NCBI GenBank assembly: GCA_017886205.1
Contig: JAFNEO010000053.1
Coordinates: 64,126 to 128,125 of the forward strand
Direction: 5' to 3'
From: Candidatus Aminicenantes bacterium
GTDB lineage: Bacteria > Acidobacteriota > Aminicenantia > Aminicenantales > UBA8522
DNA: 64,000 bases
Shown here: piece by piece, positions 22,051 to 47,658 of the stretch
Numbering within the stretch: the stretch's first letter is position 1
Layout: each line of letters starts with the position of its first letter
Made by a program: the position numbers and the translations under genes
The notes under the pieces: generated by a model
What the model was told of the DNA's origin: nothing
What the model saw: only the letters and a program-made list of their open reading frames with translations
The model's database searches: none

Positions 22051-22054
22051 GACG

Positions 22055-22903
22055 ATGTCGCTCCAAAACCTGATCATGAACTTGCAGAAATATTGGTCCG
22101 ATCAGGGATGCTATCTGGCCCAGCCGTACGACCTGGAGGTGGGTGCGGGAACCATGACGCCGGATACTTTCTTCCGCGTCCTCGACCGCAGGCCCTGGCG
22201 GGTGAGCTATGTCCAGCCGTCGCGCCGGCCGAATGACGGCCGGTTCGGCGAGAACCCGCATCGCGTCCAGAAACACCACCAGTATCAGGTCATCATCAAG
22301 CCATCCCCCTCGGATATCCAGAAGATCTACATCGACAGCCTGGTCAACCTGGGGATCGACCTCTCTGTGCATGACCTTCGATTTGACGAGGATGACTGGG
22401 AGTCGCCGACCATCGGGGCCTGGGGGGTTGGCTGGCAGGTCGTCCTTGACGGACTCGAGATCACCCAGTTTACCTACTTCCAACAGGCCGGAGGAGTTGA
22501 GCTCTTTCCCGTCCCCGTCGAGATCACCTATGGGCTGGAGCGGCTGGAGATGTTCCTCGAGGGAAAGGACAACATGTTTGACCTCGACTGGTCCGGGGAT
22601 GTTTCATATCGGGATTTGAGGCTGCGAGAAGAAAAGGAGTTCTCCGAGTACAATTTCAACCTCGCCGATATCGACAGGCTCCGGAAATCGTTTGCCCTGG
22701 CCGAGGCCGAAGCGACAATGCTCATAGACAAAGGCCTCCTGCTCCCGGCTTATGACATGTGCCTCAAATGCTCCCACCTGTTCAACCTCCTGGACGCCCG
22801 GGGCGCAGTGAGCGTCACCGAGCGGGTCAAAACGATCGGCCAGATCAGGAGCCTGGTCGTCCGGATCGCCCAGAAGTATTGCGCCGAGCAGGGGAGGACG
22901 TGA
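22055..22903 (+). CDS. glyQ: glycine--tRNA ligase alpha subunit
   Basis: 282 aa, strongly conserved GlyQ sequence. Starts 4 nt after the gcvPB stop. Confidence 0.95.
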   Translation: MSLQNLIMNLQKYWSDQGCYLAQPYDLEVGAGTMTPDTFFRVLDRRPWRVSYVQPSRRPNDGRFGENPHRVQKHHQYQVIIKPSPSDIQKIYIDSLVNLGIDLSVHDLRFDEDDWESPTIGAWGVGWQVVLDGLEITQFTYFQQAGGVELFPVPVEITYGLERLEMFLEGKDNMFDLDWSGDVSYRDLRLREEKEFSEYNFNLADIDRLRKSFALAEAEATMLIDKGLLLPAYDMCLKCSHLFNLLDARGAVSVTERVKTIGQIRSLVVRIAQKYCAEQGRT

Positions 22904-24987: not shown

Positions 24988-25424
24988 ATCTGGAACTCGT
25001 CCTCATCCGGGCCGGAAGGCTCCTCGCCCGGTTTCGCTTTGTCGGCGAATTTCTGTTCGAGAGCCATGATCTTGACCATGGCCTGAGGCAGGTTCTGGTC
25101 TTTGTCCATCCCATAGGGATTGAATTGCACCCCGACCTGGAATTGATAACTCTTCCCTTCGCTGGGGGACGACCATTTGACGACGCCCTTCATGCTGAAA
25201 GGAATGCGCTCTCCGGGGACGGAGATCCGCAGCGTAACCTCGGTGTCGGGCTTGAGCACTTTCTGGGTGAGAAAGCGGATACCGCCCCGGCTGATGTCCA
25301 GGACGGGGCAGAACTCCTCCATGAAACCCGGCCTTGGGAGGAGCGACTTTCTCTGGTAATTGACGGTGGCACCGGGGATCTTGAAGCGGATGCAGGTCCG
25401 TTTTTCGATCTCGTTTTCGCCCAT
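24984..25424 (-). CDS. PilZ domain protein (c-di-GMP receptor)
   Basis: RKSLLPRPGF (RxxxR) and DISRGGIRF (DxSxxG) motifs. The ATG at 25424 with a GAAGAGGG RBS is preferred. Confidence 0.6.
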   Translation of the reverse strand: MGENEIEKRTCIRFKIPGATVNYQRKSLLPRPGFMEEFCPVLDISRGGIRFLTQKVLKPDTEVTLRISVPGERIPFSMKGVVKWSSPSEGKSYQFQVGVQFNPYGMDKDQNLPQAMVKIMALEQKFADKAKPGEEPSGPDEDEFQI

Positions 25425-25522
25425 TGATGCCCTCTTCTTTCGAGACTCACCATTCTTATATAACAAATCGAGCCAAAAAGTCAAAATATTCTTCCAGTTA
25501 CGGTTACAGAATCAGTTTGGCG

Positions 25523-28124: not shown

Positions 28125-29792
28125 CTACCGCAGCGTGCCTTCGTAGTGGGCGGTCAGCTGGCGCTTCCGCACGTCCTCGGGGGTGTAAGAGGGGAGCAGC
28201 ACCGGAGCCATACGGTCCGTCTTGATCCGGGCCTTCTTCAGTTCATTCTCATAGGCAGTGATGTGCTTGAGGGACAGCTTGTCCAGCTTCACGTGTTTTG
28301 TGTATTCCGCCGCGTATTTGCCGGCCCTGCGTCCGAAGACGTTATAGTCGAGGACTGAATTTCCCATCAGCCGGTTCCGGCCGTGAACACCGCCCGATGC
28401 TTCGCCGGCGACATACAGGCCGGGGATGTTCGACTCGCACTTGGCGTTGATCTCGACTCCGCCGTTCTGGTAGTGGAGCGAGGGATAGACGAGCATCGGC
28501 TCTTTGGTGATGTCGATCTGGTAGCGGATAAACTGCCGGACCATAGCCGGAAAGTTCTTGTAAAGGTAGCCGGCGCCCTGGATGATGTCGATGAGCGGGG
28601 AGTCCAGCCAGACACCCCACCGGCCGCTCGGAGTCTGAATCCCATTGTGCCTCTCCAAGCATTCCCGGATAAAGGCGGCGCTCTCGACGTCACGGGGTTC
28701 ACGCGGAAAGACAAACAGTTCACCGTGCCTATTGAGCGGCTGTCCCCCGGCGCCCCGGATCTTCTCCGTGATAAGGAAGCCGGCGATCTGCTCGGGAAAG
28801 CTGGCGCCTGTCGGATGATACTGCACCGAGTCCATGTACATGAGCTTGGCTCCGGCCCGGTAGGCCATGATCAGCCCATCGCCCGTCGCACCGTAGTGGT
28901 TCGTTGTGTCGAAACCGCGAATGTGCAGCCGGCCATAGCCGCCCGTAGCGATGATCGTGGCCTTCGCCCTGACCATGAAATATTCTTCAGTTTCCATGTT
29001 GTAGAGGACACCGCCGGCGCAGTGTCCTTTTTTGTCCATGATGAGCTCGACCGTGGGCATGAACTCGAGGACGGTGATCTCGTCGGGATGGTTGCGGACT
29101 TCGTCCATGAGTGTCCGCATGATTATGGCGCCGGTGTAATCCCGGCAGGAATGCATGCGCTTGCGGGAAGTGCCTCCGCCGTGGAGGACGTACATGGAAT
29201 GATCGGGATTTTTGTCCCAGACGACACCCAGGTCTTCCAGCCACTTGACCACTTCGGGACCATCCTCGGTCATGGCGCGGACGAGGTCCGGCTTGTTGTC
29301 GAAGTGCCCGCCCCCCATCGCATCGAGATAATGACGGGTGGGAGAGTCCTTCGCGGGAACGGCCGCCTGCATCCCTCCCTGCGACATCATCGAGTTGGCG
29401 TCGCCCATCCGGAGCTTGGTGGAAATGATGCTCTTGGCGCCGTTCTGCATGGCGATGATGGCCGCGGCGCATCCGGCGCCTCCGCCGCCGACGATCAGGA
29501 TATCGGTTTCGTAATCGGGTTTGTCGAGGTTGAAGAGCTCCGCTCTGATCCGGCTGTGAGACTCCAGGATATCGGCCACCTCGGTCGTGATTTCTTCGCC
29601 CTTATTGGGCCCGATATGGACAACGCGCCGCGATTCTTTCTTGTAATCGGGATGGAACTTGTTCAGGACGTCATCCCGCTCTTCGGCGGTCATCGGCGCA
29701 AAAACGGGTTTCCCGGATTTTTCGAGCTCGAGCCTTTTCTGCCGGGTTTCGTCTACCAGCTTCAATGAATCTCTCATATATTCTGGATACAT
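28125..29792 (-). CDS. fumarate reductase/succinate dehydrogenase-family FAD flavoprotein (SdhA/FrdA/AprA superfamily, soluble)
   Basis: Start re-set to the ATG at 29792 (AAGGAGAG RBS). GGGGAGCAAA dinucleotide-binding motif and a QYHPTG active-site region. No His at the covalent-FAD position. Confidence 0.75.
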   Translation of the reverse strand: MYPEYMRDSLKLVDETRQKRLELEKSGKPVFAPMTAEERDDVLNKFHPDYKKESRRVVHIGPNKGEEITTEVADILESHSRIRAELFNLDKPDYETDILIVGGGGAGCAAAIIAMQNGAKSIISTKLRMGDANSMMSQGGMQAAVPAKDSPTRHYLDAMGGGHFDNKPDLVRAMTEDGPEVVKWLEDLGVVWDKNPDHSMYVLHGGGTSRKRMHSCRDYTGAIIMRTLMDEVRNHPDEITVLEFMPTVELIMDKKGHCAGGVLYNMETEEYFMVRAKATIIATGGYGRLHIRGFDTTNHYGATGDGLIMAYRAGAKLMYMDSVQYHPTGASFPEQIAGFLITEKIRGAGGQPLNRHGELFVFPREPRDVESAAFIRECLERHNGIQTPSGRWGVWLDSPLIDIIQGAGYLYKNFPAMVRQFIRYQIDITKEPMLVYPSLHYQNGGVEINAKCESNIPGLYVAGEASGGVHGRNRLMGNSVLDYNVFGRRAGKYAAEYTKHVKLDKLSLKHITAYENELKKARIKTDRMAPVLLPSYTPEDVRKRQLTAHYEGTLR

Positions 29793-29803
29793 CGGGCTCT
29801 CCT

Positions 29804-30559
29804 TTACTCCGTATCGCGGGCATAGTATCTCTTCTTCAGCACATCCCGCTTCGCACTCATCAGCTCTTTGTATTCCTTGTCGTATTTTTTCTGCTGGATT
29901 TCTTTCAACCTGGCCTCGAGCTCGGGGCTCTTGGGGGCCAGATAGCGTCCGTAGAGCCTTCGGCCAAGTATTCCGACGTTGTAATGGACGATCTCGGCCG
30001 GACAGCGGATGGCGCAAAGCCCGCAGCTCAGGCAGTCGAAGGAGAGGTCCATGACCTTTTCGATGTCACCCCGGATGGCCGCTTGGATGTAGTCCATGAC
30101 CTCAAGGCTCTGGGGACAGGCTTTGGTGCAGGTGTTGCAGGCCACGCAGCGGAAAATCTCCGGGTAGAGGACCTGGAAGGCGGCAACGTTGGGCTCAAGC
30201 TTCTTGATGTCATAGACCGGCTTTTGGGCGGGAATGACGGGCAGCTGGGACAGCCACATCCCCTCCTGGACGAGGGTCGTGCAGGCCAGACCGGTATAGA
30301 TCTTGTAATCGCCGGGCAAGCGGTAGACCGTCGCGCAGGCGCCGCAAAACCCCTCCCGGCAGCCCGCCCCGCGCTTGATCTGGTAGCCGGCGTATTCGAT
30401 GGCGCCCATGATCGTCGCATCGGCGGGGACGCGGTGGGCCTTGCCCATGATATAGACCATGACCATCTCTTTGGGGGGCTCCTGGGGCTTGGTCTTGACC
30501 GGCCGAGGCTTAGCCGGTGCCGCCTTCTTCTTGGCGGGTGCTTTTTTGTTGGCCATCAT
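29804..30559 (-). CDS. SdhB/FrdB-like iron-sulfur subunit ([2Fe-2S] plus two Cys clusters) with a Lys/Pro-rich N-terminal tail
   Basis: CREGFCGACA plant-type [2Fe-2S] motif, CVACNTCTKACP and CLSCGLCAIRCP. ATGATG start with a GGAGAAGGAGA RBS. N-terminal tail ANKKAPAKKKAAPAKPRPVKTKPQEPPKE. Confidence 0.7.
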   Translation of the reverse strand: MMANKKAPAKKKAAPAKPRPVKTKPQEPPKEMVMVYIMGKAHRVPADATIMGAIEYAGYQIKRGAGCREGFCGACATVYRLPGDYKIYTGLACTTLVQEGMWLSQLPVIPAQKPVYDIKKLEPNVAAFQVLYPEIFRCVACNTCTKACPQSLEVMDYIQAAIRGDIEKVMDLSFDCLSCGLCAIRCPAEIVHYNVGILGRRLYGRYLAPKSPELEARLKEIQQKKYDKEYKELMSAKRDVLKKRYYARDTE

Positions 30560-30590: not shown

Positions 30591-31415
30591 TCAATACTCT
30601 TGCGGGAGTTTCTTGAGGTCCGCCCAGGAATACACGGGGCCGTCCTTGCAGACATAGTGGAAACCGATGTTGCAGCGGCCGCATTTCCCGATCCCGCACT
30701 TCATCTTGTTTTCGACGGTGGTGTAGATTTGTTCGTCCTCGAACTTGAGGTCTTTAAGATTCTTGATGACGAATTTGATCATGATCGGCGGTCCGCAGGT
30801 AATGGCGATCGTGTTGGCGGGGGAGGGCTTCTTTTCCAGGACGTTGGTCGGCACGAACCCGACGAACTCCTTCCAGTCCGGCTCGGCCACGTCGATCGAC
30901 AGGTGAACCGGCATCTGACCCTTCAGGTCCGCGAGCTCGTCTTTGAAGACGATGTCCTTGGACGTTCGGGCTCCATAGATCAGGCTGAGAGCTCCGAATT
31001 CGCTTTTCCGGAGGAGCGCCGTCTGGACGACCGACCAGAGCGGCGCGAGCCCGATCCCGCCGCCGATGAAGACCAGGTTTTTGCCTTGCCATGCATCCAT
31101 CGGGAACCCGTTGCCGTAGGGGCCTCTGACCCCGATGAGGTCGCCGACCTCCATATCGTGCAGGGCGGCTGTGACCCGGCCCGTCCGGAGGATGCTGAAC
31201 TGCAGATAGTCCTTGATGAGCGGGGAAGAGGAGATCGAGATCATCGCTTCCCCTTTGCCGAAGACCGAGAGCATGGCGCACTGCCCGCAGCGGTAGTCGA
31301 AGCGGGCGCCGTTCGCGAACTCGGTGCGGAAGGTCTTGATCGCCCGGGCGCCGACGACCTCATCCTTGGTCTGAACGATCTTGGCCAGCTGAGGAGTATA
31401 AACATTAAGCTCCAT
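30591..31415 (-). CDS. FAD/NAD(P)-binding oxidoreductase with a C-terminal [2Fe-2S] (PyrK/AsrB/FlxA-like)
   Basis: FNR-like fold with a C-terminal CGIGKCGRCNIGFHYVC cluster motif. AAGGTGAG RBS. Confidence 0.7.
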   Translation of the reverse strand: MELNVYTPQLAKIVQTKDEVVGARAIKTFRTEFANGARFDYRCGQCAMLSVFGKGEAMISISSSPLIKDYLQFSILRTGRVTAALHDMEVGDLIGVRGPYGNGFPMDAWQGKNLVFIGGGIGLAPLWSVVQTALLRKSEFGALSLIYGARTSKDIVFKDELADLKGQMPVHLSIDVAEPDWKEFVGFVPTNVLEKKPSPANTIAITCGPPIMIKFVIKNLKDLKFEDEQIYTTVENKMKCGIGKCGRCNIGFHYVCKDGPVYSWADLKKLPQEY

Positions 31416-32454
31416 GGTCTCTCACCTTGTCCAGGACTTTGATGATGTCGATCCCGACCGGACACAGCGTGATGCAGCGGCCGCAGCCGACACACATGAA
31501 CTTGTCATAGACCTGGATGAAATACTGGAATTTATGCAGCAAACGCTGGCGCAGCCGCGAGGCCTTGTCGGGCCGGGGGTTGTGACCAGAGGAATGCATG
31601 GTGAAATCAGGGAACTGGCAGGTGTCCCAGGTCCGGACTCTTTGACCCTTGAGTGGGGAGGGGGATTCGACCTCATCGCCGATATCAAAGCAATGACAGG
31701 ACGGACAAAGATAGGTGCAGATGCCGCAGCGGAGGCAGCTCATCGACTCCTCATCCCAGAGCGGCGAATCGAACATTCCTTTGAGCTTTTGGGCGATTGG
31801 CCGGGCGTCCTTGAGCTGGCGTCTGATCTTCTTTTCCGACTCGGCGTGGGCGGCTTTGACTTGTTTCTTGGCCTCAGGCTTCGGCTCCTCGAAGAGCGCC
31901 TTGGCGGCGGAGATGAGCTTCTCTCCTTTAGCGGTCATCGACTGGACGTAATACCGGTCGCCGAGGTCGGTCAACAGGAGGTCCAATCCCTCTTCGGAAT
32001 GCGGCGAACCTTCCACCGACGTGCAGAAGCAGTTTTCTGAGGGAGGGGTGGTGCAGGCGAACCCGACCAGAGTGGTCTGGTCCCTGCGTTTCCAGTAATA
32101 GACATCCTTGAATTCGCCTCCGAACACTTCGTCTAGCATCCAGGCGGCCCTGGCCTCGCAAGGCCGGGCTCCGATGATGACTGTGGGTTTGACCTCGGGC
32201 AGGACTTCTTTGATCTCCAGGGTTTCCCGGTTACCCGCCAGAGTCTTGGCGAACTCGAGGAAGACCTCCCGCTGGGGGAAAAGGATCTTTTTGGGGGGGA
32301 GGGTGGTCTGGAGGACATCGAGACTGACCTCTCCGCCGTCGGCCTCGAAATAGTTCCAGCGGCCCTCCTCATCTTTTCGGGGGATGTAGACCCTCCAGGA
32401 GTCCAGCTTCTTGACCCATTGGGGAAAGGACTTTTTGGCGAGTATCTTTTCCAT
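31405..32454 (-). CDS. 4Fe-4S dicluster protein (AsrA/HydB/FlxB-like)
   Basis: CLRCGICTYLCPSC and CVGCGRCITLCP motifs. Size and architecture match anaerobic sulfite reductase subunit A-like proteins. Confidence 0.6.
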   Translation of the reverse strand: MEKILAKKSFPQWVKKLDSWRVYIPRKDEEGRWNYFEADGGEVSLDVLQTTLPPKKILFPQREVFLEFAKTLAGNRETLEIKEVLPEVKPTVIIGARPCEARAAWMLDEVFGGEFKDVYYWKRRDQTTLVGFACTTPPSENCFCTSVEGSPHSEEGLDLLLTDLGDRYYVQSMTAKGEKLISAAKALFEEPKPEAKKQVKAAHAESEKKIRRQLKDARPIAQKLKGMFDSPLWDEESMSCLRCGICTYLCPSCHCFDIGDEVESPSPLKGQRVRTWDTCQFPDFTMHSSGHNPRPDKASRLRQRLLHKFQYFIQVYDKFMCVGCGRCITLCPVGIDIIKVLDKVRDHGA

Positions 32455-32458: not shown

Positions 32459-33490
32459 TTACCTGATGAAATCTTGAGGATCTTCGTCCCGGAAACAGGA
32501 GATGAGGGCCGGAAGGGCGGGGTCGAACCCGACCTCGTAGCCGAAGAGCTCTTTGGCCTCCTTCTCCAGCTTCTTGTTCAGAAACCGCAGGGGGATGTCG
32601 AGCGGGCAGGCCCTTTCGCATTCGCCGCAGTCGATGCAGCGGCCGGCGAGGTGGATGGCCCGGACGAGGTGGTAGACCAGGTTCTCGGAGGACTCCGCCG
32701 ACCTCTGGATCCAGTGGATCCGCTGGGCTTTCTCATCCGCCGTCGTATCGGCGGTCACGGCCAGGTTGATGCTGTCCACTACGCACTCATCGCAGTAGCA
32801 CATCGGGCAGGCCGAGCGGCAGGCGTAGCAGCGGATGCATCTGTCGAGCTGTTCTTTCCAGAAACTCGAGCGATCGGCGGCCGAGAGGGACTCGATCTTT
32901 TCCAGGGAGCCGAAGGGCTTGTCTAGAGGCCTCTTGGTTTTCTCACCGCTCAGGAGGTCATAGATCACCGGGAAATTGGCTTTGCACTCAAGGCATCTCT
33001 CGGCCAGGAGCTCTTCCGCGGCCATCTCGATCTTCCCGTCCTCGGTGGTGACGACGAAACGGTCCTGGGCGTCGACTTCAACCCTCTTAGCCTTTTTCCC
33101 CGCCAGCTTCTTGGCCAGCTTGGCATCATCGACAACGCCCATCTTTTCGCAGGACACGCCCAGGATGTAGACATCACTGCGGTCGATAAACTTTTCCTGC
33201 AGGAGGACGACGACGGCCCGGCTGTCGCATCCCTTGACCATGATTCCCACCGGCCGCTTGTCGGGCTGCTTCTGTCTCGCTTTCCGTCTCTTCTCATCGA
33301 CCAGGAAGCGGACGAGGTTGTGGACGCAGGTGGGGTCCCAGACGAGCTTGTCCACGTCCTCGGGTTTCTTGATGAAGAGGGGAGCGGCCAGCCAGCCATT
33401 GCTGCCGGCGCCGTAGCCGATGATGTATTTGACCTTGCCTTCGCGGAGCAGTTTTTTAGCTTCCTCTTTGAGGTCCTCGATCTTAGCCAT
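32459..33490 (-). CDS. 4Fe-4S dicluster protein (FlxC/HydB-like)
   Basis: Start re-set to the ATG at 33490 (MAKIEDLKEE...), overlapping the MvhD-like stop as TAATG. CIRCYACRSACP and CIDCGECERACP motifs. Confidence 0.55.
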   Translation of the reverse strand: MAKIEDLKEEAKKLLREGKVKYIIGYGAGSNGWLAAPLFIKKPEDVDKLVWDPTCVHNLVRFLVDEKRRKARQKQPDKRPVGIMVKGCDSRAVVVLLQEKFIDRSDVYILGVSCEKMGVVDDAKLAKKLAGKKAKRVEVDAQDRFVVTTEDGKIEMAAEELLAERCLECKANFPVIYDLLSGEKTKRPLDKPFGSLEKIESLSAADRSSFWKEQLDRCIRCYACRSACPMCYCDECVVDSINLAVTADTTADEKAQRIHWIQRSAESSENLVYHLVRAIHLAGRCIDCGECERACPLDIPLRFLNKKLEKEAKELFGYEVGFDPALPALISCFRDEDPQDFIR

Positions 33491-33912
33491 TAGGGATTTC
33501 TCCTCAGCTTGGTTTGAGGCCCGAGGGGTTTCAGTTCCTTGACGAAATCCTTGATGATTTGGGTGAACTTGGTCCCTTCGGCCGCCGAAACCCAGGACAT
33601 TTGGAACCTCTGAGTTTCGAGGCCGACGTATTCCAGGAGCTTTTTGACGAGGTTCAGCCGACGCCTGGCGTAATAATTCCCCTTGATATAGTGGCAGTCG
33701 CCCGGATGACAGCCGGAGACGAGAACCCCGTCGGCGCCCTTGTTGAAGGCCGAGAAAATGTAGAGCGGGGATACGCTGCCGGAGCACATGACTTGGATGG
33801 GGACAACGTTGGGAGGGTATTCCATCCGGGAAACGCCGGCCAGGTCGCTCCCGGCCGAGGAACACCATTTGCACAGAAAGGCGACGATCCGCGGTTCGTA
33901 ATCCTCCGCCAT
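33490..33912 (-). CDS. mvhD: methyl-viologen-reducing hydrogenase delta subunit-like protein (MvhD/FlxD)
   Basis: About 141 aa. Cys pattern CKWCSSAG...CSGSVSP...SGCHPGDCHY is typical of MvhD. The ATG at 33912 lies 2 nt after the hdrA stop. Confidence 0.8.
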   Translation of the reverse strand: MAEDYEPRIVAFLCKWCSSAGSDLAGVSRMEYPPNVVPIQVMCSGSVSPLYIFSAFNKGADGVLVSGCHPGDCHYIKGNYYARRRLNLVKKLLEYVGLETQRFQMSWVSAAEGTKFTQIIKDFVKELKPLGPQTKLRRNP

Positions 33913-33914
33913 GA

Positions 33915-35864
33915 TTAGCCTCCGAGACACGCGTTGATCATTTCGGCAACCTGCTGCTGAGTCAGGTTTTTGACCTGGATGGCCGAGCGCAGGCAGGTGG
34001 CCGTGCAGGTGCCGCAGCCCTCGCAGAGGACCTCGTTGACTTCGACCTTCCCGTCCTTCAGAGTAAGGGCATCATAGGGGCAGACGGCGACACACATCCC
34101 GCATCCCGTGCACAGGTTGCTGATAACCTTGGCTACGGTCGGCGAATGGAACAGCCTATCTTGAGAAAGGATGGCCACGGCCTTGGCCGCGGCGCCGCTG
34201 GCCTGGGCGACGGCTTCAGGTATATCTTTGGGGGCCTGGGCGGCTCCGGCTAAAAACATCCCCGCTGTCACGCTCTCGACCGGCCGCAACTTGGGATGGG
34301 CCTCGGCCAGAAAGCCGTCCTTGTCCAGGGCCAGCTTGAGCTTCTTGGCCAGTTCCTGGGCGCCCGTGGAAGGCCGCATGGCCTGAGCCAGGACGACCAT
34401 ATCGGCGGCGATCTCGATACTCCTGCCGGTTAGGGTGTCGACTCCCCAGACCATGATCTTGCCCTTTTCCTCGAAGACCTTGGAGACCTTGCCGCGGAGG
34501 TAGACGACCCCGTCCTCTTCCACTGCCCGCTGGACGAACTCCTCGTATCCCTTGCCGCCCGAGCGGATGTCGATGTAGAAGATGTAGGCCTGGCCGTCGT
34601 GGACATGGTGTTTGTAGAGCATGGCATGTTTGGCCGTGTACATGCAGCAGATCTTCGAACAGTAGGCGCAATGGTTCTCGGGGTCGCGCGACCCTGAGCA
34701 CTGGATGAAGACGACCTCTTTGGGCTCCTTGTGGTCGGACGGCCGCAGGATCTGACCCATGGTGGGGCCGGAGGCCGAGCATAGTCGCTCGAACTGGAGA
34801 CCGTCGAGGACGTCGGCGTACTTGCCGAACCCGTACTCGGCCATGTTCTCCTTGTCGTAGAGGTCATAGCCGGTGGCCACGATTATGACGCCCACTTCCG
34901 CTTCGATGATCTCAGGCTTCTGGTCGAAGTCGATGGCTTTTGGGTTGCAGACGTCGGCGCACTTGCCGCAGGCGATGGTCGTGAACGGGTCGGGACAGTT
35001 CTTGTCGTCGAGTGTGTAGGATGCCGGGATGGCCTGAGGGAAGGGGATATAGATCGCCCGCCGTCCGGTCAAACCGAGGTCGAACTCGTTGGGCACAACG
35101 ATCGGGCAGACCTTGGTGCATTCATCGCAGAGGGTGCATTTTGCCGGGTCGACATAGGTGGGCTTCTTCAGGATCTTGACCTTGAAGTTGCCGACGTAAC
35201 CGCTGACGTCCTGGACTTCACTGTATGTCATCAGCTTGATCTTGGGGTGCTTGGAAACCTCCACCATCTTTGGCGTCAGGATACATTGCGAGCAGTCCAG
35301 GGTGGGGAAAGTTTCCGACAGCTGGATCATGTGGCCCCCGACAGAGGGGTTCCTCTCTACCAATATCACTTCGAACCCGGTGTTGGCGATGTCGAGCGCG
35401 GCCTGGAGCCCGGATATACCGCCTCCGACGACGAGGGCCCGCCGGGTCACCGGTACGCTCAGAGCGTCCAAGGACTCGTTCTGGCGGACTTTCTCCACTG
35501 CGGACCGCGCAATCTTGGTCGCTTTTTGCGTGGCCTTAGGCTTGTCCTTATGGACCCAGCTGCACTGCTCGCGGATGTTGGCGATTTCGCAGCGGAAGCT
35601 GTTGAGACCGGCGCGCTTGGCGGCATTACGGAAGGTCGTCTCGTGGAGGTTGGGCGAGCAGCAGGCGACAACGACGCCGTCCAGCTTTTTCTCCCTGATG
35701 GCCTGCTCGATCAGGTTTTGACCCGGATCGGAGCACATATAGACATAGTCCTCGGCGTGAACCACACTGGGGTGCTTGGCTAGCTCCTCGGCGACTTTCT
35801 TGACGTCCACCGTGCCGGCAATGTTGATGCCGCAGTGGCAGATAAAGACTCCAGTCCGTTTCAT
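33915..35864 (-). CDS. hdrA: heterodisulfide reductase subunit A (FAD, multi-FeS)
   Basis: N-terminal VFICHCGINIAG, GGGISG FAD motif, an internal four-Cys insertion and a C-terminal 2x[4Fe-4S] ferredoxin domain. 649 aa. ATGA overlap with the upstream kor gamma gene. Confidence 0.9.
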   Translation of the reverse strand: MKRTGVFICHCGINIAGTVDVKKVAEELAKHPSVVHAEDYVYMCSDPGQNLIEQAIREKKLDGVVVACCSPNLHETTFRNAAKRAGLNSFRCEIANIREQCSWVHKDKPKATQKATKIARSAVEKVRQNESLDALSVPVTRRALVVGGGISGLQAALDIANTGFEVILVERNPSVGGHMIQLSETFPTLDCSQCILTPKMVEVSKHPKIKLMTYSEVQDVSGYVGNFKVKILKKPTYVDPAKCTLCDECTKVCPIVVPNEFDLGLTGRRAIYIPFPQAIPASYTLDDKNCPDPFTTIACGKCADVCNPKAIDFDQKPEIIEAEVGVIIVATGYDLYDKENMAEYGFGKYADVLDGLQFERLCSASGPTMGQILRPSDHKEPKEVVFIQCSGSRDPENHCAYCSKICCMYTAKHAMLYKHHVHDGQAYIFYIDIRSGGKGYEEFVQRAVEEDGVVYLRGKVSKVFEEKGKIMVWGVDTLTGRSIEIAADMVVLAQAMRPSTGAQELAKKLKLALDKDGFLAEAHPKLRPVESVTAGMFLAGAAQAPKDIPEAVAQASGAAAKAVAILSQDRLFHSPTVAKVISNLCTGCGMCVAVCPYDALTLKDGKVEVNEVLCEGCGTCTATCLRSAIQVKNLTQQQVAEMINACLGG

Positions 35865-36493
35865 TGTTTTGCCTTTCGCGGCGGATTTTTCTTGATATCA
35901 GGCAGCGGCTGATTTTTCAGGGGCTTCAGCTCTTTTTGGGGCTTTTCTTTTTCTTTGGCCAAGAGCTCGACCCCGTAGTCATAGCCTTTCTCGAACGCTC
36001 GGATGTTGAGCTCTAAGAATCTCTTGGGGACCAGGCCGGGCAGAGCTTTTTTCATGGCCTCGGGGGAGACCACCCGGCTGATGCCGGTGAAAAACCCGAG
36101 CATGACCAGGTTGGCGAAGATGCGGTTCCCCATCTCCTCGGCGAACCGGGTTGAGGGGACGCCGTAGGATTTGATCTGGCCGCGCGCCGGCTTCAGCCGA
36201 ACTAGGTCCGTATCATAAATCAGGATCCCGTCCGCACGGAGATCCGGCTCGTATTTCTCGTAGGCGTCCTGGGACATGGAGACGAGGATTTCCGGACGCG
36301 TGATGTACGGATAGAGGACGCGGTCTTCTGAGATCACGACCTGGGAGCTGCAGGCGCTTCCGCGGGCTTCCGGGCCGAAGCTCTGGGTCATGGTCCCGAA
36401 TTTATTATCAAAGAGCGAAACGGCCTTGCCGGTGATCAAACCGCAGCGGATGATCCCCTGGCCGCCATAGCCGGAAAAACGGATCTCGTTCAT
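35861..36493 (-). CDS. korC: 2-oxoacid:ferredoxin oxidoreductase gamma subunit
   Basis: GYGGQGI motif typical of POR/KOR/VOR gamma subunits. ATGA overlap with the beta subunit. Confidence 0.8.
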   Translation of the reverse strand: MNEIRFSGYGGQGIIRCGLITGKAVSLFDNKFGTMTQSFGPEARGSACSSQVVISEDRVLYPYITRPEILVSMSQDAYEKYEPDLRADGILIYDTDLVRLKPARGQIKSYGVPSTRFAEEMGNRIFANLVMLGFFTGISRVVSPEAMKKALPGLVPKRFLELNIRAFEKGYDYGVELLAKEKEKPQKELKPLKNQPLPDIKKNPPRKAKQ

Positions 36494-37359
36494 GGTTTCA
36501 CTCCATAGGGCACGTATTTATCGCCCAGGGTCTTCTGGAGATGAGTGTTCATGCATTCGAGGTAGGTAGGCTTGTCCCTGTCCACGAACTTGCCGACGAT
36601 GATCTTTCCCTGGAAATCGATGGGCACAGTGCGCGTGTCGGCACCGTGCCTCATCTCGGATTTGTCATAGTAATATTTGAGCAGGTTTAATCCGTCGCCC
36701 AGCCTGTTCCGTCGGGCGTAGAGAGTGACGCAGGGTGTGATGACCTCGATAAAGGAGAACCCTCTCTTGACCAGCGCCTCTTGGATGGACTTGGTGACCC
36801 GGCGGATATGGAGGGAGGTCCAACGGGCGACATAACTTGCGCCGCAGGCGTCGGCGAGGTAGGCCAGGTTGAATGGGTATTCAAAGTTCCCATAGGGCGC
36901 CGTCGAAAGGTTGGCCGTAAGCGGGGTCGTGGGTGCCACCTGACCTCCCGTCATGGCGTAATTGAAATTGTTGACGCAGATGACCAGGATGTCCATATTC
37001 CGGCGGGCGGCATGGATGAGATGGTTGCCGCCGATGCCGGCGATATCCCCGTCGCCGCTGAAGACGACCACCTTGAGCTCGGGGTTGGCCAGCTTGAGCC
37101 CTGTGGCAAAGGGAATGGCGCGGCCGTGGGTGCTGTGGAACGAATCGAACTTGACGTATCCGGCCACGCGTCCCGTGCATCCGATGCCGGAGACGACAGC
37201 GAGCTTGTTGAGGTCGAGCTCGCTCTTCTTCAGCGCCTCGACGAACGAGGTGACCACTGTCCCTATGCCGCAGCCGGGGCACCAGATGTGGGGGATGCGG
37301 TCCATCCGGAGGAAATCCTCCATCGGGTTTCTTTCTTCTGGGCGTTCCTCTTCTTTCAT
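36490..37359 (-). CDS. korB: 2-oxoacid:ferredoxin oxidoreductase beta subunit (TPP-binding)
   Basis: WCPGCG motif and the GDGD..IGGNH thiamine-diphosphate-binding region. Confidence 0.9.
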   Translation of the reverse strand: MKEEERPEERNPMEDFLRMDRIPHIWCPGCGIGTVVTSFVEALKKSELDLNKLAVVSGIGCTGRVAGYVKFDSFHSTHGRAIPFATGLKLANPELKVVVFSGDGDIAGIGGNHLIHAARRNMDILVICVNNFNYAMTGGQVAPTTPLTANLSTAPYGNFEYPFNLAYLADACGASYVARWTSLHIRRVTKSIQEALVKRGFSFIEVITPCVTLYARRNRLGDGLNLLKYYYDKSEMRHGADTRTVPIDFQGKIIVGKFVDRDKPTYLECMNTHLQKTLGDKYVPYGVKP

Positions 37360-38522
37360 CGGGCTGCCTCCTTGATGGCTTTCAGGATGTCGTCGGGATC
37401 GTGGACCCAGCCGCCGCAGTGGGGGACGCCGATGGCCGGGGCCCGGCCGAAGGCGCAGCGCTCGACCTCGCGCCGGATCTGTCCCAGGTTGATCTCGGGC
37501 ACAACAAAGGCCTTGACTTTCTTGGCCAGTTCTTTGATCCGGTCTTCGGGAAAAGGCCAGACCGTGACCAGCCGGAGGGTCCCCACTTTGATGCCGGCTT
37601 TGCGGGCCTCCTGGACGGCCTTGACCGAAACACGTGAAGTGATCCCGTAGGAGATGACCACAATCTCGGCGTTGTCGGTCTGGTCCTCCCGGTAGTCGAT
37701 GATTTTAGGAGCGTTCTTGGTGATTTTATCGACGAGATGGTGGACGCACCAGTCCTGGGCTTCGGCGTTTATCGCCGGGTAGCCGCGCTCATCATGAGTC
37801 AGGCCGGTCGTGTGGAAACGGTAGCCGTCGCCCGCCTTGACCATGAAAGGGACCAGGTCTTTGTCGGGCTTGTAGGGGAGGTATTTTTGTCTGGGTCCCA
37901 CGTACCATTTTCGCTCGACCACTTCGATCTGGTCGGCGGGCGGGATGACCACTTTTTCGTGCATGTGGCCCACACATTCGTCGGTCATGATGAAGACGGG
38001 AACCCGGTAGGTCTCCGCCAGATTAAAGGCTTTGATGGTCAGGTCGAAGCACTCCTGCGGTGAATCAGGGGAGAGGGCGATGATCTCATAGTCGCCATGC
38101 GAGCCGAATTTGACCTGCAACATGTCCGCCTGCCCGACCAGCGTCGGGAGCCCGGTGGACGGGCCGCCCCTCTGGACGTTGGCGATGACGAGCGGCGTCT
38201 CCATCATGGCCGCGAGGCCGATGTTCTCCATCATCAAGGAGAACCCCGGTCCGGAGGTGACCGTCATCGACTTTTGCCCGCCCCAGGAAGCACCGATCAG
38301 GGCCGTGATCGAGGCGATTTCGTCCTCCATCTGAATAAAGATTCCCCCGACGAAGGGGATGCGCTCGGCGAAGCGTTCGGCGGTCTCTGTAGAGGGCGTG
38401 ATCGGATATCCGGCGAAAAATCGGCAACCGGCCGCCAGACTGCCCTCGGCGATGGCGAAGTCGCCGTCGAGGTAGTGAGCTCCGGTCAGGACTCCTTTAG
38501 GGTCTGCTTTCAGTTTTCTCAC
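37356..38522 (-). CDS. korA: 2-oxoacid:ferredoxin oxidoreductase alpha subunit
   Basis: GYPITPS..E motif. GTG start at 38522 with a strong AAGAGGAGGAAG RBS; it overlaps the delta gene by 26 nt. Confidence 0.9.
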
Positions 38523-38775
38523 CTTCTTCCTCCTCTTTTTTGAGAGTGACGAATATGGCGAATTCCGGGCAGATGGCTTCGCAGAGCTGGCAATAGATGC
38601 ACTCTTCCTCTTTTACGACCCGGGGCGCATGGTAGCCTTTTTTGTTGTACTCCTCGGAGAGCTCGAGGACGTCGCGGGGGCAGTACTCGACACAAAAGCC
38701 GCAGCCTTTGCATCTCTGCTTGTTGATGTGGATATCGCCCTTTTTTGCCTTGAGATTGCCGAAGTGGATGGTCAT
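38497..38775 (-). CDS. korD: 2-oxoacid:ferredoxin oxidoreductase delta subunit (2x[4Fe-4S] ferredoxin)
   Basis: [12 protein letters not shown] and [12 protein letters not shown] motifs. 92 aa. Confidence 0.8.
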
Positions 38776-38782: not shown

Positions 38783-39661
38783 TCAGATCAGTCCCTTCTG
38801 CCGCAGGAGCGGTTGGGGGTCGACATAGTGGAGATCAAGACGCAGGGACTCTTCTCCGCAGCCCATGGCGATGGCCAAGAGCTGGGTGAAATAGAGGATC
38901 GGGATCTTTTTGAACTCGGAGTACTTCTTGGCCGTTTCCTTCTGCCGGTGGTCGAGGTTGAAGGCGCAGAGCGGACAGCTGACGGAGACGACCTCCGCTC
39001 CCCGGCCGCGGGCCGAAGTCAGGATGCTGAATGTCCGGTCGGCGACGGTCTCCGGCTTGTCCACCGTCAGGTAGGCGCCGCAGCACTCCGTCTTATAGGG
39101 AAAGTCGACGGGGTTTGCCCCGAGGACGGCCATCAGGTCATCGAGGACGGTCGGGTTCTCCATGTCGTCGAGGCCGATCTCTTTGGGCCGGACAAGTAGG
39201 CAGCCGTAATAGCTGGCCACTTTAAGGTTGTGGAGAGGCTTTTTAACCTTCTTGCCGATCGCCTCGAACTTGACGTCCTCCCGGAGCAACTCCAGCAGGT
39301 GCCGGACTTTAACGTCTCCCCGGTAGGCGATCTTCTCCTCGTCCATGAACTTGTGGATCTTCTGCAGGCTGTCCGGGTCAGCCTTGATCCTTTCGTTGAC
39401 CCGTTTGAGGGTGTTGTAACACATCGCGCAGAGGGTCATGACCGAATCCGCCTGCTCTTCCTTCACCCGGATCAGGTTGCGGACTGAAGCCAGATGGTGC
39501 ATCAGGTCGTCGGTGGTCAGGGAGTAGACGGTCCCGCAGCAGTTCCAGCGCCGGAGCTCTTGGACGTCGACCCCGAGCTCGCGCAGCGCGCAGAGAGCGG
39601 AGTCCTCGAAGTTCTTGGCGTTGCTCTTCAGTGTACAACCCGGATAGTAGCTAACTTTCAT
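38783..39661 (-). CDS. hdrB: heterodisulfide reductase subunit B (two CCG domains)
   Basis: Two cysteine-rich CCG repeats (CxnCCGxmCxxC: YPGC...CCGTVYSL...CAMC and YYGC...CCGAY...CPLC). Confidence 0.9.
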
Positions 39662-39720: not shown

Positions 39721-40128
39721 TCACGAGGTGAATTTTCGAAAGCTGCTGATCAGAGCGATGGCCGGGACGCTAGCCTTATCCTCGGCGCTGAGCTTGGGAA
39801 CTTCAACATGATCCTTCCTCTTGCGCAGCAGGACCTGGCGCACGGCCTCCATCACTTCGGCTATCTTTATCCCCTTGGGGCAGCGGACGTTGCAGGTGTA
39901 GCACGAGGCACAAATCCAAACCGACTTTGCTTCGAGCAACTCCTCCTTGAAACCGAGCTGGGCATAGCGGATGACCTGGTTGGGAAGGATGTCCATCTCA
40001 GCGACTGCCGGACAGCCGGCCGAGCATTTACCGCACTGATAGCAGGCCAGCAGCTTCTGGCCGCTGATCTCCTCGATCTTCCTCACAAAGTCGTCCCTGA
40101 TCTTCTTCTTGGAGAGGATGGTTCTCAT
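39721..40128 (-). CDS. hdrC: heterodisulfide reductase subunit C (2x[4Fe-4S])
   Basis: CYQCGKCSAGCP and CASCYTCNVRCP motifs. AAAGGA RBS. Confidence 0.85.
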   Translation of the reverse strand: MRTILSKKKIRDDFVRKIEEISGQKLLACYQCGKCSAGCPAVAEMDILPNQVIRYAQLGFKEELLEAKSVWICASCYTCNVRCPKGIKIAEVMEAVRQVLLRKRKDHVEVPKLSAEDKASVPAIALISSFRKFTS

Positions 40129-40205
40129 TTTTTCCTTTTCTCTTTCCGGCTTGAAAGGATCGATACCCGATATAAAGATGATATTCTAGGCCAAAATGAC
40201 CCTTC

Positions 40206-40234
40206 AGTAAATCACAATTTTTTTTTCCTGTCAA
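40206..40234 (-). promoter_or_regulatory. candidate promoter of the hdr-kor-flx-sdh operon (TTGACA-N17-TTTACT)
   Basis: A -35 TTGACA (reverse complement of tgtcaa at 40229-40234) overlaps the stop of the upstream hydrolase gene. The -10 is weak (4/6 match). Confidence 0.25.
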
Positions 40235-47620: not shown

Positions 47621-47658
47621 CGGCTAACCCGTCCGGTCATCTCTGCTGCCCCCCCTGC

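What the first reader, a model, noticed from the sequence alone, without database searches (positions are those of the whole stretch)
28125..30559. Anchor-less SdhA/SdhB-like pair at the distal end of the Hdr operon; flavoprotein lacks the covalent-FAD histidine
The flavoprotein carries the GGGGAGCAAA and QYHPTG hallmarks. The position corresponding to the covalent-FAD His (RSHTVAAQGG in SdhA) reads ANSMMSQGG, as in soluble fumarate reductases, AprA and thiol:fumarate reductase TfrA. The partner FeS protein has the SdhB [2Fe-2S] and two further Cys clusters. No SdhC/D or SdhE-like anchor is encoded nearby, while HdrB (CCG domains, as in type E SQR SdhE and TfrB) is in the same operon. This suggests a thiol:fumarate-reductase-like or Hdr-coupled fumarate/succinate module.
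Basis: partly seen in the sequence, partly recalled or inferred. Interest (0 to 1): 0.6.

Follow-up and report, generated by a model that had tools for sequence, protein, structure and literature searches.

The report
Hdr-coupled soluble fumarate reductase operon
The flagged genes are a membrane-anchor-less fumarate-reductase pair at the end of a 13-gene operon. The operon very probably lets an anaerobe reduce fumarate with NADH while also making the low-potential ferredoxin needed by the 2-oxoglutarate synthase encoded in the same operon; this arrangement has already been proposed for other bacteria but never tested biochemically.

Summary
On the minus strand, 28125-29792 encodes a 555-aa SdhA/FrdA-fold flavoprotein. 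It has Asn in place of the covalent-FAD His, and all fumarate-binding and catalytic residues are intact. 29804-30559 encodes an SdhB-like protein with [2Fe-2S] plus two CxxCxxCxxxCP motifs. No membrane anchor is present.

The pair closes a tightly packed 13-gene operon: hdrC-hdrB-korDABC-hdrA-mvhD(flxD)-flxC-flxB-flxA-frdB-frdA. The flavoprotein belongs to a distinct clade (100% bootstrap) with a ~95-aa N-terminal extension and a truncated C-terminal domain. It is neither AprA nor NadB, and it is not a true TfrA equivalog.

In 80 related loci from more than 20 phyla, including archaea, frdB precedes frdA in 78. Among the 30 loci with at least 8 kb on both sides, Hdr genes are present in 26 and kor genes in 18. 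Fumarase or sucCD genes are often adjacent.

Exactly this arrangement (korABCD between hdrBC and hdrA, with flx and "tfrAB") was described in tubeworm symbionts and Thioflavicoccus (Rubin-Blum 2019). The Flx-Hdr-FR version was described in Pseudoclostridium thermosuccinogenes. Both were proposed to be electron-bifurcating NADH:fumarate/ferredoxin systems.

Verdict: this is a new (Aminicenantes) member of a known, biochemically unproven kind.

The parts
28125..29792 (-). frdA/tfrA-like flavoprotein (555 aa). It carries non-covalent-FAD-type Asn133, a ~95-aa N-terminal extension and a truncated C-terminal domain.
   Evidence: Pfam FAD_binding_2 at 6e-76. NCBIfam TfrA 334.8 bits, below the 718 cut-off. 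Catalytic residues conserved. AF2 model pLDDT 87, with E. coli FrdA 1kf6_A as the top PDB match.
29804..30559 (-). frdB-like FeS subunit (251 aa) with a [2Fe-2S] motif and two CxxCxxCxxxCP motifs. It has no CCG domain and carries a ~60-aa C-terminal extension. The start codon is uncertain; an alternative Met lies at about 30466.
   Evidence: Alignment with E. coli FrdB/SdhB. Motif scan. Weak hits to the TfrB N-terminus and to dhsB.
30591..31415 (-). flxA-like NAD(P)H/FAD/[2Fe-2S] subunit (AsrB/HydG-like)
   Evidence: Pfam NAD_binding_1 plus DHODB_Fe-S_bind. NCBIfam PRK08345 at 240.8 bits.
31405..32454 (-). flxB-like FeS subunit (AsrA/HydB-like)
   Evidence: Pfam Fer4_22 at 1.7e-33. sulfhyd_HydB at 195 bits.
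32459..33490 (-). flxC-like FeS protein (343 aa; true start at MAKIED)
   Evidence: Translation. Two 4Fe-4S motifs.
33490..33912 (-). mvhD/flxD
   Evidence: Pfam FlpD at 2.2e-53.
33915..35864 (-). hdrA (FAD and poly-[4Fe-4S]; the presumed bifurcating flavoprotein)
   Evidence: NCBIfam HdrA2 at 830 bits and HdrA at 655 bits.
35861..36493 (-). korC (2-oxoacid:ferredoxin oxidoreductase gamma subunit)
   Evidence: Pfam POR at 1.6e-30. NCBIfam PRK08537 at 191 bits.
36490..37359 (-). korB (TPP-binding beta subunit)
   Evidence: Pfam TPP_enzyme_C. 2-oxoglutarate Fd oxidoreductase beta model at 236 bits.
37356..38522 (-). korA (alpha subunit; exact start uncertain)
   Evidence: NCBIfam PRK08659 at 557 bits, above its 411 cut-off.
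38497..38775 (-). korD (2x[4Fe-4S] ferredoxin-like delta subunit)
   Evidence: Read from the sequence. Pfam Fer4 and Fer4_7.
38783..39661 (-). hdrB with two complete CCG motifs (ligands for two non-cubane [4Fe-4S] clusters)
   Evidence: Pfam CCG x2. NCBIfam HdrB at 185.5 bits; MFR SdhE at 160.8 bits, below its 500 cut-off. Regex check of both motifs.
39721..40128 (-). hdrC (2x[4Fe-4S]); first gene of the operon
   Evidence: Translation. Pfam Fer4_8.
40183..40211 (-). Promoter-like site (TTTACT-17-TAGAAT) about 55 nt upstream of hdrC. It is only a consensus match.
   Evidence: The number of sites found is not above the shuffled expectation.

Best explanation
The two genes encode the catalytic (FrdA-like, non-covalent FAD) and electron-transfer (FrdB-like, [2Fe-2S] plus two [4Fe-4S]) subunits of a soluble, essentially one-way fumarate reductase. 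It has no quinol site. It is instead the high-potential terminal module of a cytoplasmic FlxABCD-HdrABC complex.

Proposed mechanism:
1. NADH enters at FlxA and passes through FlxB, FlxC and MvhD to the HdrA flavin.
2. At the HdrA flavin the electron pair is bifurcated.
3. One electron path runs downhill through HdrC and HdrB to the FrdB clusters, the FrdA FAD and fumarate (E0' about +30 mV).
4. The other path runs uphill to ferredoxin.
5. Net reaction: 2 NADH + fumarate + Fd(ox) -> 2 NAD+ + succinate + Fd(red).
6. The co-encoded KorDABC then spends the reduced ferredoxin on succinyl-CoA + CO2 -> 2-oxoglutarate. This gives a reductive TCA branch that supplies its own low-potential reductant.

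Shown here: gene content, motifs, conserved active site, absence of an anchor, fold, and conserved synteny with Hdr, Kor, Flx, fumarase and SucCD.

Inferred: physical complex formation, bifurcation, direction of the reaction, and direct (thiol-free) wiring.
For: Operon. Thirteen genes lie on one strand, with overlaps or gaps of at most 59 nt.

Flavoprotein.
- The fumarate-binding and proton-donor residues are conserved, and the covalent-FAD His is replaced by Asn in nearly every family member examined.
- The AF2 model (pLDDT 87) best matches E. coli FrdA and M. smegmatis SdhA.

FrdB. Its Cys ligands align with those of E. coli FrdB/SdhB.

Rosetta-stone evidence.
- P0122 is a natural FrdB-FrdA fusion.
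- FrdB and HdrB together cover the N- and C-terminal halves of the TfrB model.

Synteny.
- frdB sits next to frdA in 78 of 80 loci.
- Among the 30 loci with at least 8 kb on both sides, Hdr is present in 26, Kor in 18 and Flx in 13.
- Class I fumarase lies nearby in 18 of 80 loci and SucCD in about 15 of 80. L033, for example, reads fum-hdrCBA-mvhD-flxCBA-frdBA-sucCD-korDABC, which is the order of the pathway steps.

Literature.
- The same arrangement and the same model were published for Endoriftia, Escarpia symbionts and Thioflavicoccus (PMC6315080).
- Co-expression was shown in Endoriftia (PMC11636981) and summarised in PMC13147460.
- In P. thermosuccinogenes the Flx-Hdr-FR 'succinate operon' is co-regulated (PMC7282089).

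Thermodynamics, my own calculation from standard potentials (NAD -320 mV, fumarate +33 mV, Fd about -480 mV): the bifurcating direction is about -37 kJ per reaction and the reverse is equally unfavourable.

Established knowledge, from memory: flavoproteins of this family with non-covalent FAD reduce fumarate but oxidise succinate poorly.
Against: - No biochemical assay exists for any member of this clade.
- tfrAB did not follow the expression pattern of the rest of the cluster in Endoriftia.
- The window contains no fumarase, sucCD or ATP-citrate lyase within 64 kb, so the pathway context in this organism is not shown.
- HdrB keeps both intact CCG motifs. This is equally compatible with a real thiol/disulfide intermediate.
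- 4 of the 30 loci with at least 8 kb on both sides have frdBA without any Hdr gene within 10 kb.
- Complex formation between FrdB and HdrBC could not be modelled with the tools available.
Confidence: 0.6

Rival explanations
1. Thiol-mediated coupling. Flx-HdrABC bifurcates NADH electrons to ferredoxin and to a diffusible or protein-bound disulfide (DsrC-like or an unknown cofactor). A split thiol:fumarate reductase (HdrB-type CCG site plus FrdB plus FrdA) then re-oxidises the thiol with fumarate, as Tfr does with CoM-SH and CoB-SH in methanogens.
For: The best-scoring model for the flavoprotein is TfrA. TfrB is a fusion of an FrdB-like half and an HdrB-like half, and both halves are present here as separate genes. 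HdrB retains both complete CCG motifs. The HdrC-HdrB-FrdB-FrdA four-gene core recurs in many archaea and bacteria. The literature lists a route via a DsrC-like protein as an alternative.
Against: The operon has only one HdrB, which would have to both reduce and oxidise the same carrier. FrdB itself has no CCG domain. I recognised no thiol-carrier or DsrC-like gene in the operon. Bacteria are not known to have CoM or CoB (from memory).
Confidence: 0.2
2. Co-location without bifurcation. FrdAB is a stand-alone soluble fumarate reductase that takes electrons directly from reduced ferredoxin or from the NADH-binding Flx module. Hdr and Kor are only co-regulated neighbours in a reductive-branch operon.
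For: 4 of the 30 loci with at least 8 kb on both sides lack Hdr near frdBA. L037 and L049 show Flx-like genes near frdBA without Hdr. tfrAB expression is partly uncoupled in Endoriftia.
Against: Hdr is linked to frdBA in 26 of 30 such loci across phyla and domains, often as the only conserved neighbours. The gene spacing, with overlaps, is typical of a translationally coupled complex.
Confidence: 0.1
3. Reverse or different chemistry. Either the module oxidises succinate, confurcating with Kor-derived reduced ferredoxin to make NADH, or the flavoprotein acts on another substrate such as L-aspartate or another enoate or dicarboxylate.
For: The NJ placement of the clade relative to NadB (53%) and Tfr/Sdh (45%) is unresolved. 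Asn at the His position also occurs in a true NadB, P0195. NadB shares the H/R/H/R substrate site. Aminicenantes are described as fermenters, in which Kor could run oxidatively.
Against: The NadB-specific Glu121 is Gly here. The NadB model scores 262, below its 452.75 cut-off and below TfrA and SdhA. NadB has no SdhB-like partner, whereas frdB is adjacent in 78 of 80 loci and fused in P0122. Fumarase and SucCD are neighbours. Succinate plus reduced ferredoxin to NADH is about +37 kJ under standard conditions (my calculation). Non-covalent FAD disfavours succinate oxidation (from memory).
Confidence: 0.08

Closest known systems
flxABCD-hdrABC/korABCD/tfrAB rTCA cluster of tubeworm symbionts (Ca. 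Endoriftia, Escarpia symbiont) and Thioflavicoccus mobilis (Rubin-Blum et al. 2019, PMC6315080; Mitchell et al. 2024, PMC11636981)
   Same: The gene set is the same, and so is the peculiar order with four-subunit korABCD inserted between hdrBC and hdrA, plus flx and a two-gene anchor-less fumarate reductase. The proposed bifurcating mechanism is the same. Gallionella and Nitrosomonadales loci with a 74%-identical FrdA carry the same 13 genes.
   Different: The host is Aminicenantes rather than Gammaproteobacteria. In the window the operon stands alone, with no aclAB, acn, idh, mdh, pntAB or rnf nearby. I could not compare sequences directly because those genomes were not among the loci fetched.
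Flx-Hdr-fumarate reductase 'succinate operon' of Pseudoclostridium thermosuccinogenes (Koendjbiharie & van Kranenburg 2019 preprint; PMC7282089)
   Same: A two-gene fumarate reductase sits at the distal end of a seven-gene Flx-Hdr cluster, with a proposed NADH-dependent, ferredoxin-reducing fumarate reductase. Firmicute loci L060 and L077 show this nine-gene form with FrdA 54-55% identical to the window protein.
   Different: That operon carries fumarate hydratase and no kor genes. It was interpreted as succinate fermentation rather than 2-oxoglutarate synthesis.
Thiol:fumarate reductase TfrAB of Methanothermobacter (Heim et al. 1998)
   Same: It is soluble and has no anchor. TfrA is the best-scoring model for the flavoprotein. 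A true TfrA equivalog, P0194, also lacks the covalent-FAD His. The FeS subunit has a [2Fe-2S] and two all-Cys 4Fe-4S motifs. A CCG module is involved.
   Different: Scores are far below the equivalog cut-offs: 334.8 against 718 for TfrA and 28 against 385 for TfrB. The CCG domains are on a separate HdrB with an extra HdrC. The flavoprotein has a ~95-aa N-terminal extension and lacks most of the C-terminal domain. The clade is separate from the Tfr-like sequences. The electron donor is presumably Hdr/NADH rather than CoM-SH and CoB-SH.
Type E succinate:quinone reductase / methylmenaquinol:fumarate reductase (SdhABE; CCG-domain SdhE)
   Same: An SdhAB-type pair works with a CCG-domain protein. 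The window HdrB also matches the MFR SdhE model at 160.8 bits.
   Different: The SdhE cut-off of 500 is not reached, and HdrB fits the HdrB model better. SdhE is adjacent to sdhAB and peripherally membrane-bound. Here the CCG protein is paired with HdrC and lies 8 kb away, at the other end of the operon. The flavoprotein lacks the covalent-FAD His.
Five-subunit soluble NADH-dependent fumarate reductase of Hydrogenobacter thermophilus (Miura et al. 2008)
   Same: It is a soluble, irreversible, NADH-linked fumarate reductase of a reductive TCA cycle, with FrdA and FrdB plus extra electron-input subunits.
   Different: The genes are dispersed in H. thermophilus, and no HdrA or bifurcation has been reported.

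Membership tests
Classical complex II (quinone-linked SQR/QFR, types A-D) | Covalently bound FAD through a conserved His (E. coli FrdA H44 / SdhA H45) | tested here: not met
   The aligned residue is Asn133, and it is Asn in nearly all members of the clade examined.
Classical complex II (quinone-linked SQR/QFR, types A-D) | Membrane anchor subunit(s) SdhC/D or FrdC/D encoded with sdhAB | tested here: not met
   All 13 operon genes are assigned to soluble families. No protein has 2 or more TM segments, while the E. coli controls gave 3 each. There is no spare coding space in the operon.
Classical complex II (quinone-linked SQR/QFR, types A-D) | FeS subunit with [2Fe-2S], [4Fe-4S] and [3Fe-4S] (third motif lacking one Cys) | tested here: not met
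   The first two motifs are present. The third is CLSCGLCAIRCP with all four Cys, against CTFVGYCSEVCP in E. coli FrdB.
Classical complex II (quinone-linked SQR/QFR, types A-D) | Curated HMM cut-off (TIGR01812 sdhA_frdA_Gneg, 567.3 bits) | tested here: not met
   283.8 bits. Pfam Succ_DH_flav_C is not detected.
Thiol:fumarate reductase TfrAB | TfrA equivalog score (NF004900, cut-off 718 bits) | tested here: not met
   334.8 bits. It is the best of all models but reaches less than half the cut-off. A true equivalog, P0194, scores 765.
Thiol:fumarate reductase TfrAB | TfrB: one polypeptide with FeS motifs plus two C-terminal CCG motifs | tested here: not met
   FrdB is 251 aa with no CCG domain and scores 28 bits against a cut-off of 385. 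The CCG motifs are on the separate HdrB.
Thiol:fumarate reductase TfrAB | No covalent-FAD His; soluble; no anchor | tested here: met
   The TfrA equivalog P0194 also lacks the His.
Thiol:fumarate reductase TfrAB | Uses CoM-SH and CoB-SH as electron donors | not testable with these tools
   This needs an enzyme assay.
Flx-Hdr-associated anchor-less fumarate reductase (Rubin-Blum 2019; Koendjbiharie 2019) | Two-gene frdBA/tfrAB pair in one cluster with flxABCD and hdrABC | tested here: met
   The linkage is conserved in related loci.
Flx-Hdr-associated anchor-less fumarate reductase (Rubin-Blum 2019; Koendjbiharie 2019) | Four-subunit korABCD inserted between hdrBC and hdrA (tubeworm-symbiont type) | tested here: met
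   Window order hdrC-hdrB-korD-korA-korB-korC-hdrA compared with the description in PMC11636981.
Flx-Hdr-associated anchor-less fumarate reductase (Rubin-Blum 2019; Koendjbiharie 2019) | Sequence orthology to the published Endoriftia, T. mobilis and P. thermosuccinogenes proteins | not tested
   Those sequences were not retrievable. Proxies are Firmicute loci L060 and L077 and Gallionella loci L009-L011, which have the same architectures and fall in the same 100%-supported clade.
Flx-Hdr-associated anchor-less fumarate reductase (Rubin-Blum 2019; Koendjbiharie 2019) | NADH-dependent, fumarate-coupled ferredoxin reduction | not testable with these tools
   I found no report of this being demonstrated for any member.
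L-aspartate oxidase NadB | Equivalog cut-off (TIGR00551, 452.75 bits), the conserved Glu121, and no FeS partner | tested here: not met
   262.1 bits. Glu121 is Gly here. An SdhB-like partner is adjacent in 78 of 80 loci and fused in P0122. The NJ tree does not exclude a deep sister relationship.
Adenylylsulfate reductase AprAB | Significant full-length similarity to AprA; AprB partner with only two [4Fe-4S] | tested here: not met
   The PDB AprA hits have E = 3.5e-5 and 1.5e-4 and cover the N-terminal FAD part only. No AprA model is among the best 25 of 49 NCBIfam matches listed. The partner protein has a [2Fe-2S] motif.
Type E SQR / MFR (SdhABE) | SdhE equivalog (NF042965, cut-off 500 bits) next to sdhAB | tested here: not met
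   The CCG protein scores 160.8 bits. It fits HdrB better at 185.5 bits, is paired with HdrC and lies 8 kb from frdBA.

The most novel reading that the evidence does not exclude
The FrdAB-like pair represents a deep, separate class of soluble fumarate reductase, marked by the N-terminal extension, the lost C-terminal domain, Asn in place of the FAD His, and an all-Cys third cluster. This class occurs in more than 20 bacterial and archaeal phyla. In it the HdrB non-cubane clusters would act as an electron relay, not a disulfide reductase, so fumarate replaces heterodisulfide as the high-potential acceptor of HdrABC. KorDABC would dock to take the ferredoxin-level electrons directly. The whole would be a single 'fumarate-to-2-oxoglutarate' redox machine and a new type of flavin-based electron bifurcation.
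Probability: 0.35. Interest if true: 0.75.

Novelty: new member of a known kind. Interest (0 to 1): 0.45.

Why it matters
If the model is right, anaerobes and rTCA autotrophs solve a long-standing problem: where the very low-potential ferredoxin for 2-oxoglutarate synthase comes from. They would take it from the large free-energy drop of NADH-dependent fumarate reduction instead of wasting that energy or spending membrane potential. They would also conserve energy from fumarate reduction without quinones or a membrane complex.

The survey made here shows the frdBA-hdrCB core is far more widespread than the few lineages discussed in the papers I read. It occurs in Aminicenantes, Gallionella, Cloacimonadota, Marinimicrobia, Thermoplasmata, Bathyarchaeia, Firmicutes and others. 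It is also present in a cultured strain, Sporomusa rhizae DSM 16652, so the hypothesis can be tested directly.

The idea itself is already published, so the window adds a new host lineage and some family-level detail, not a new concept.

Tried and rejected
- AprA. The only PDB similarity is marginal, at E ~ 1e-5 over the FAD N-terminus. Rejected.
- NadB. Rejected on the HMM score, the missing Glu121 and the obligatory FeS partner. My NJ bootstrap cannot place the clade: 53% group it with NadB and 45% with Tfr/Sdh. No ML software was available.
- Hidden membrane anchor. The hydropathy scan of the 13 operon proteins and of all ORFs of at least 60 aa on both strands across 27-41 kb found none. 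The only two ORFs that passed are antisense shadow ORFs.
- The 471-aa ORF at 32459-33874 as a single gene. Rejected. Its N-terminal third is out-of-frame read-through of mvhD.
- TCA or rTCA partner genes in the window. tblastn with E. coli FumA, FumC, SucCD and Mdh, plus Pfam scans of about 30 further ORFs, found none.
- The Miura 2008 paper. It is not held.
- Literature search for a biochemical characterisation of the complex. None was found.
- Aminicenantes-specific reports of this cluster. None was found.
- Fumarase next to the Sporomusa rhizae operon. Absent.
- Promoter and terminator scan. It is not informative beyond one plausible -35/-10 pair upstream of hdrC.


Full report
**Observation**

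The flagged interval holds two minus-strand genes.

The flavoprotein is 28125-29792, 555 aa. Public annotations call the identical protein, P0001. The 630-aa TTG ORF is an over-extension.
- It matches Pfam FAD_binding_2 at 6e-76.
- It contains GGGGAGCAAA and QYHPTG.
- HMMER and MAFFT alignments with E. coli FrdA and SdhA put Asn133 (GDANSMMSQGG) at the position of the covalent-FAD His (RSHTVAAEGG).

The upstream gene, 29804-30559, encodes a 251-aa protein. Its cysteines align with the three cluster motifs of E. coli FrdB and SdhB. The third motif (CLSCGLCAIRCP) has the fourth Cys that [3Fe-4S] proteins lack.

**Anatomy of the locus**

The pair is the distal end of a 13-gene, tightly packed operon. 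Adjacent genes overlap by up to 26 nt (1-11 nt apart from the uncertain korA start) or are separated by gaps of at most 59 nt.

| Gene | Coordinates (minus strand) |
|---|---|
| hdrC | 39721-40128 |
| hdrB | 38783-39661 |
| korD | 38497-38775 |
| korA | 37356-38522 |
| korB | 36490-37359 |
| korC | 35861-36493 |
| hdrA | 33915-35864 |
| mvhD/flxD | 33490-33912 |
| flxC-like | 32459-33490 |
| flxB-like | 31405-32454 |
| flxA-like | 30591-31415 |
| frdB | 29804-30559 |
| frdA | 28125-29792 |

- The mechanical 471-aa ORF at 32459-33874 is a composite. mvhD lies in another frame, and flxC starts at MAKIED.
- HdrB has both complete CCG motifs.
- Upstream genes are unrelated: a hydrolase, a spermidine-synthase-like membrane protein, a radical SAM protein and a DUF362 protein.
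- Downstream lies a convergent secreted BNR/sortilin gene.
- None of the 13 proteins has 2 or more hydrophobic segments. E. coli FrdC, FrdD, SdhC and SdhD gave three each under the same scan. No anchor exists.

**What the flavoprotein is**

NCBIfam ranks the models TfrA (334.8 bits), then SdhA/FrdA (283.8), then NadB (262.1). All are below their cut-offs. AprA is only marginally detectable in the PDB search, at E = 3.5e-5.

A search of 1.8 billion representative proteins and alignment A1 define a subfamily. An alignment with labelled references followed: a true TfrA equivalog P0194, a true NadB P0195, and E. coli FrdA, SdhA and NadB. The subfamily has these features:
- Asn at the His position.
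- Conserved H326, E343/R346, R367 (the proton-donor position), H440 and R474.
- Gly instead of the NadB-specific Glu121.
- A conserved N-terminal extension of about 95-103 aa, with HPDY and GxNxGE motifs.
- Only about 70-85 residues after the NRLMGN motif, against 156-213 in classical enzymes. Most of the C-terminal domain is therefore missing.

A neighbour-joining tree gives this clade 100% bootstrap support. Its deeper placement is unresolved: 45% of replicates put it with Tfr/Sdh and 53% with NadB.

An AlphaFold2 model (pLDDT 87, pTM 0.88) is most similar to E. coli FrdA (1kf6) and M. smegmatis Sdh1 SdhA. NadB ranks 45th.

P0122 is a natural fusion of the FrdB-like and FrdA-like proteins.

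**Comparative context**

The best 80 come from many lineages:
- Bacteria: Aminicenantes, Gallionella/Nitrosomonadales, Rhodomicrobiaceae, Ignavibacteria, Cloacimonadota, Neomarinimicrobiota, Fibrobacterota, Thermodesulfobacteriota, Anaerolineae, Dehalococcoidia, Spirochaetota and Bacillota. The Bacillota include the cultured Sporomusa rhizae.
- Archaea: Thermoplasmata, Theionarchaea, Bathyarchaeia and Borrarchaeota.

tblastn with the 13 window proteins gave the following:
- frdB is immediately upstream of frdA in 78 of 80 loci.
- Among the 30 loci with at least 8 kb on both sides, 26 have Hdr genes, 18 have kor and 13 have flx.
- A recurring minimal core is hdrC-hdrB-frdB-frdA.
- Gallionella loci carry all 13 genes in the same internal order.
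- Firmicute loci carry hdrBC-hdrA-mvhD-flxCBA-frdBA.

Class I fumarase lies within 10 kb in 18 loci and sucCD in about 15. In L033 the genes follow the pathway order fumarase, Frd, SucCD, Kor. This is strong guilt-by-association evidence for fumarate and succinate as the substrate pair.

**Mechanism**

Shown: the parts list, the cofactor motifs, the intact fumarate site, the non-covalent-FAD signature, solubility and conserved linkage.

Inferred: NADH enters through FlxA and reaches the HdrA FAD through FlxB, FlxC and MvhD, where it is bifurcated. The exergonic branch goes via HdrC and HdrB to FrdB, FrdA and fumarate. The endergonic branch reduces ferredoxin, which KorDABC uses for reductive carboxylation of succinyl-CoA.

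With standard potentials the bifurcating direction is about -37 kJ and the reverse is correspondingly unfavourable (my calculation). Non-covalent FAD also argues for one-way fumarate reduction (established knowledge, from memory).

FrdB and HdrB together cover the two halves of the TfrB model. The system can therefore be seen as a split Tfr plugged into HdrA.

Whether electrons pass directly or through a thiol/disulfide carrier is open. One HdrB copy and a CCG-less FrdB favour direct wiring. Intact CCG motifs keep the thiol model alive.

**Comparison with what is known**

The same arrangement was published for tubeworm symbionts, T. mobilis and a groundwater gammaproteobacterium. It consists of flxABCD-hdrABC interspersed with korABCD and tfrAB, with kor between hdrA and hdrBC. 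The same electron-bifurcation proposal was made for it (PMC6315080), and co-expression was shown in Endoriftia (PMC11636981). A 2026 survey restates it (PMC13147460).

The kor-less Flx-Hdr-FR 'succinate operon' of P. thermosuccinogenes carries the same idea (PMC7282089). Cloacimonadota have an Mvh-Hdr variant (PMC8542988).

I found no biochemical proof and no description of the cluster in Aminicenantes.

The pair fails the membership tests for classical complex II, true TfrAB, NadB, AprAB and type E SQR. It fits the published Flx-Hdr-associated class.

**Verdict**

The finding is real and correctly interpreted, but it is not new in concept. It is a new member, in a new phylum, of a known and still unproven kind.

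It also identifies a cultured host for testing.

Interest 0.45.

Noticed in passing
window 32459-33930 (-): ORF-calling trap. The 471-aa ORF 32459-33874 is a composite. Its first ~128 codons are an out-of-frame read through mvhD (33490-33912, Pfam FlpD 2e-53). The real flxC-like gene starts at 33490 (MAKIED).
   Followed up: yes
window 29508-29792 (-), FrdA residues 1-95: The conserved N-terminal extension of the flavoprotein clade has near-invariant HPDY and GxNxGE motifs and no Pfam match. The AF2 model is confident there (pLDDT ~85-90). Its role is unknown; it may be an interface with Hdr/FrdB or a substitute for the missing C-terminal domain.
   Followed up: partly
window 29804-29990 (-), FrdB residues ~190-251: A conserved ~60-aa C-terminal tail (RRLYGRYL...YYARD) is present in the FrdB-like proteins of the clade and absent from E. 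coli FrdB/SdhB. In addition, a Lys/Ala/Pro-rich ~30-aa N-terminal tail is seen only in the window lineage, so the start codon is uncertain.
   Followed up: partly
P0122 (representative-library hit, 727 aa): A natural fusion of the FrdB-like FeS protein (N-terminal) with the FrdA-like flavoprotein.
   Followed up: partly
L078 1-11644: Mosaic operon. hdrB through flxA are 65-87% identical to the window proteins, but frdB and frdA are only 57% and 52% identical. This suggests that the frdBA module was replaced within an otherwise Aminicenantes-type operon.
   Followed up: no
L033, L047, L066, L069 (about 17200-20100 in each): Downstream of sucCD-korDABC these Thermodesulfobacteriota/Deltaproteobacteria loci carry a second, divergent FrdA-like gene (30-33% identity). 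In L033, L047 and L066 a second HdrB-like CCG gene (31-32% identity) follows it; none passed the filter in L069. These may form a separate type-E-like pair.
   Followed up: no
L040, L034, L035, L038, L050: These loci have duplicated hdrCB and/or hdrA copies around frdBA. In L040 one hdrCB pair flanks frdB on each side, and frdB is separated from frdA by hdrCB-hdrA.
   Followed up: no
L014 and L015, positions 1-9200: An FlxA-like fragment sits at the very start of each locus, followed by about 9 kb with no match to any operon protein before frdBA. I did not examine what occupies this stretch.
   Followed up: no
window 3751-9535: Four sizeable ORFs have no Pfam match at E <= 1e-5: 3751-5544 (+, 597 aa), 5752-6573 (+, 273 aa), 6604-7578 (+, 324 aa) and 8483-9535 (-, 350 aa). 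They lie next to a DUF1846 protein (2167-3684).
   Followed up: no
window 46679-51096 (-): A large hybrid sensor kinase (1145 aa, with PAS x2-3, GAF, HisKA, HATPase and two receiver domains) lies directly upstream of a receiver-GGDEF diguanylate cyclase. A PilZ protein sits at 24984-25484.
   Followed up: no
window 15508-24987: A housekeeping block: arginyl-tRNA synthetase, the two subunits of the glycine-cleavage P protein (19256-22050) and the glycyl-tRNA synthetase beta subunit (22759-24987). No TCA-cycle gene other than kor was recognised among the roughly 30 further ORFs scanned across the 64 kb.
   Followed up: partly
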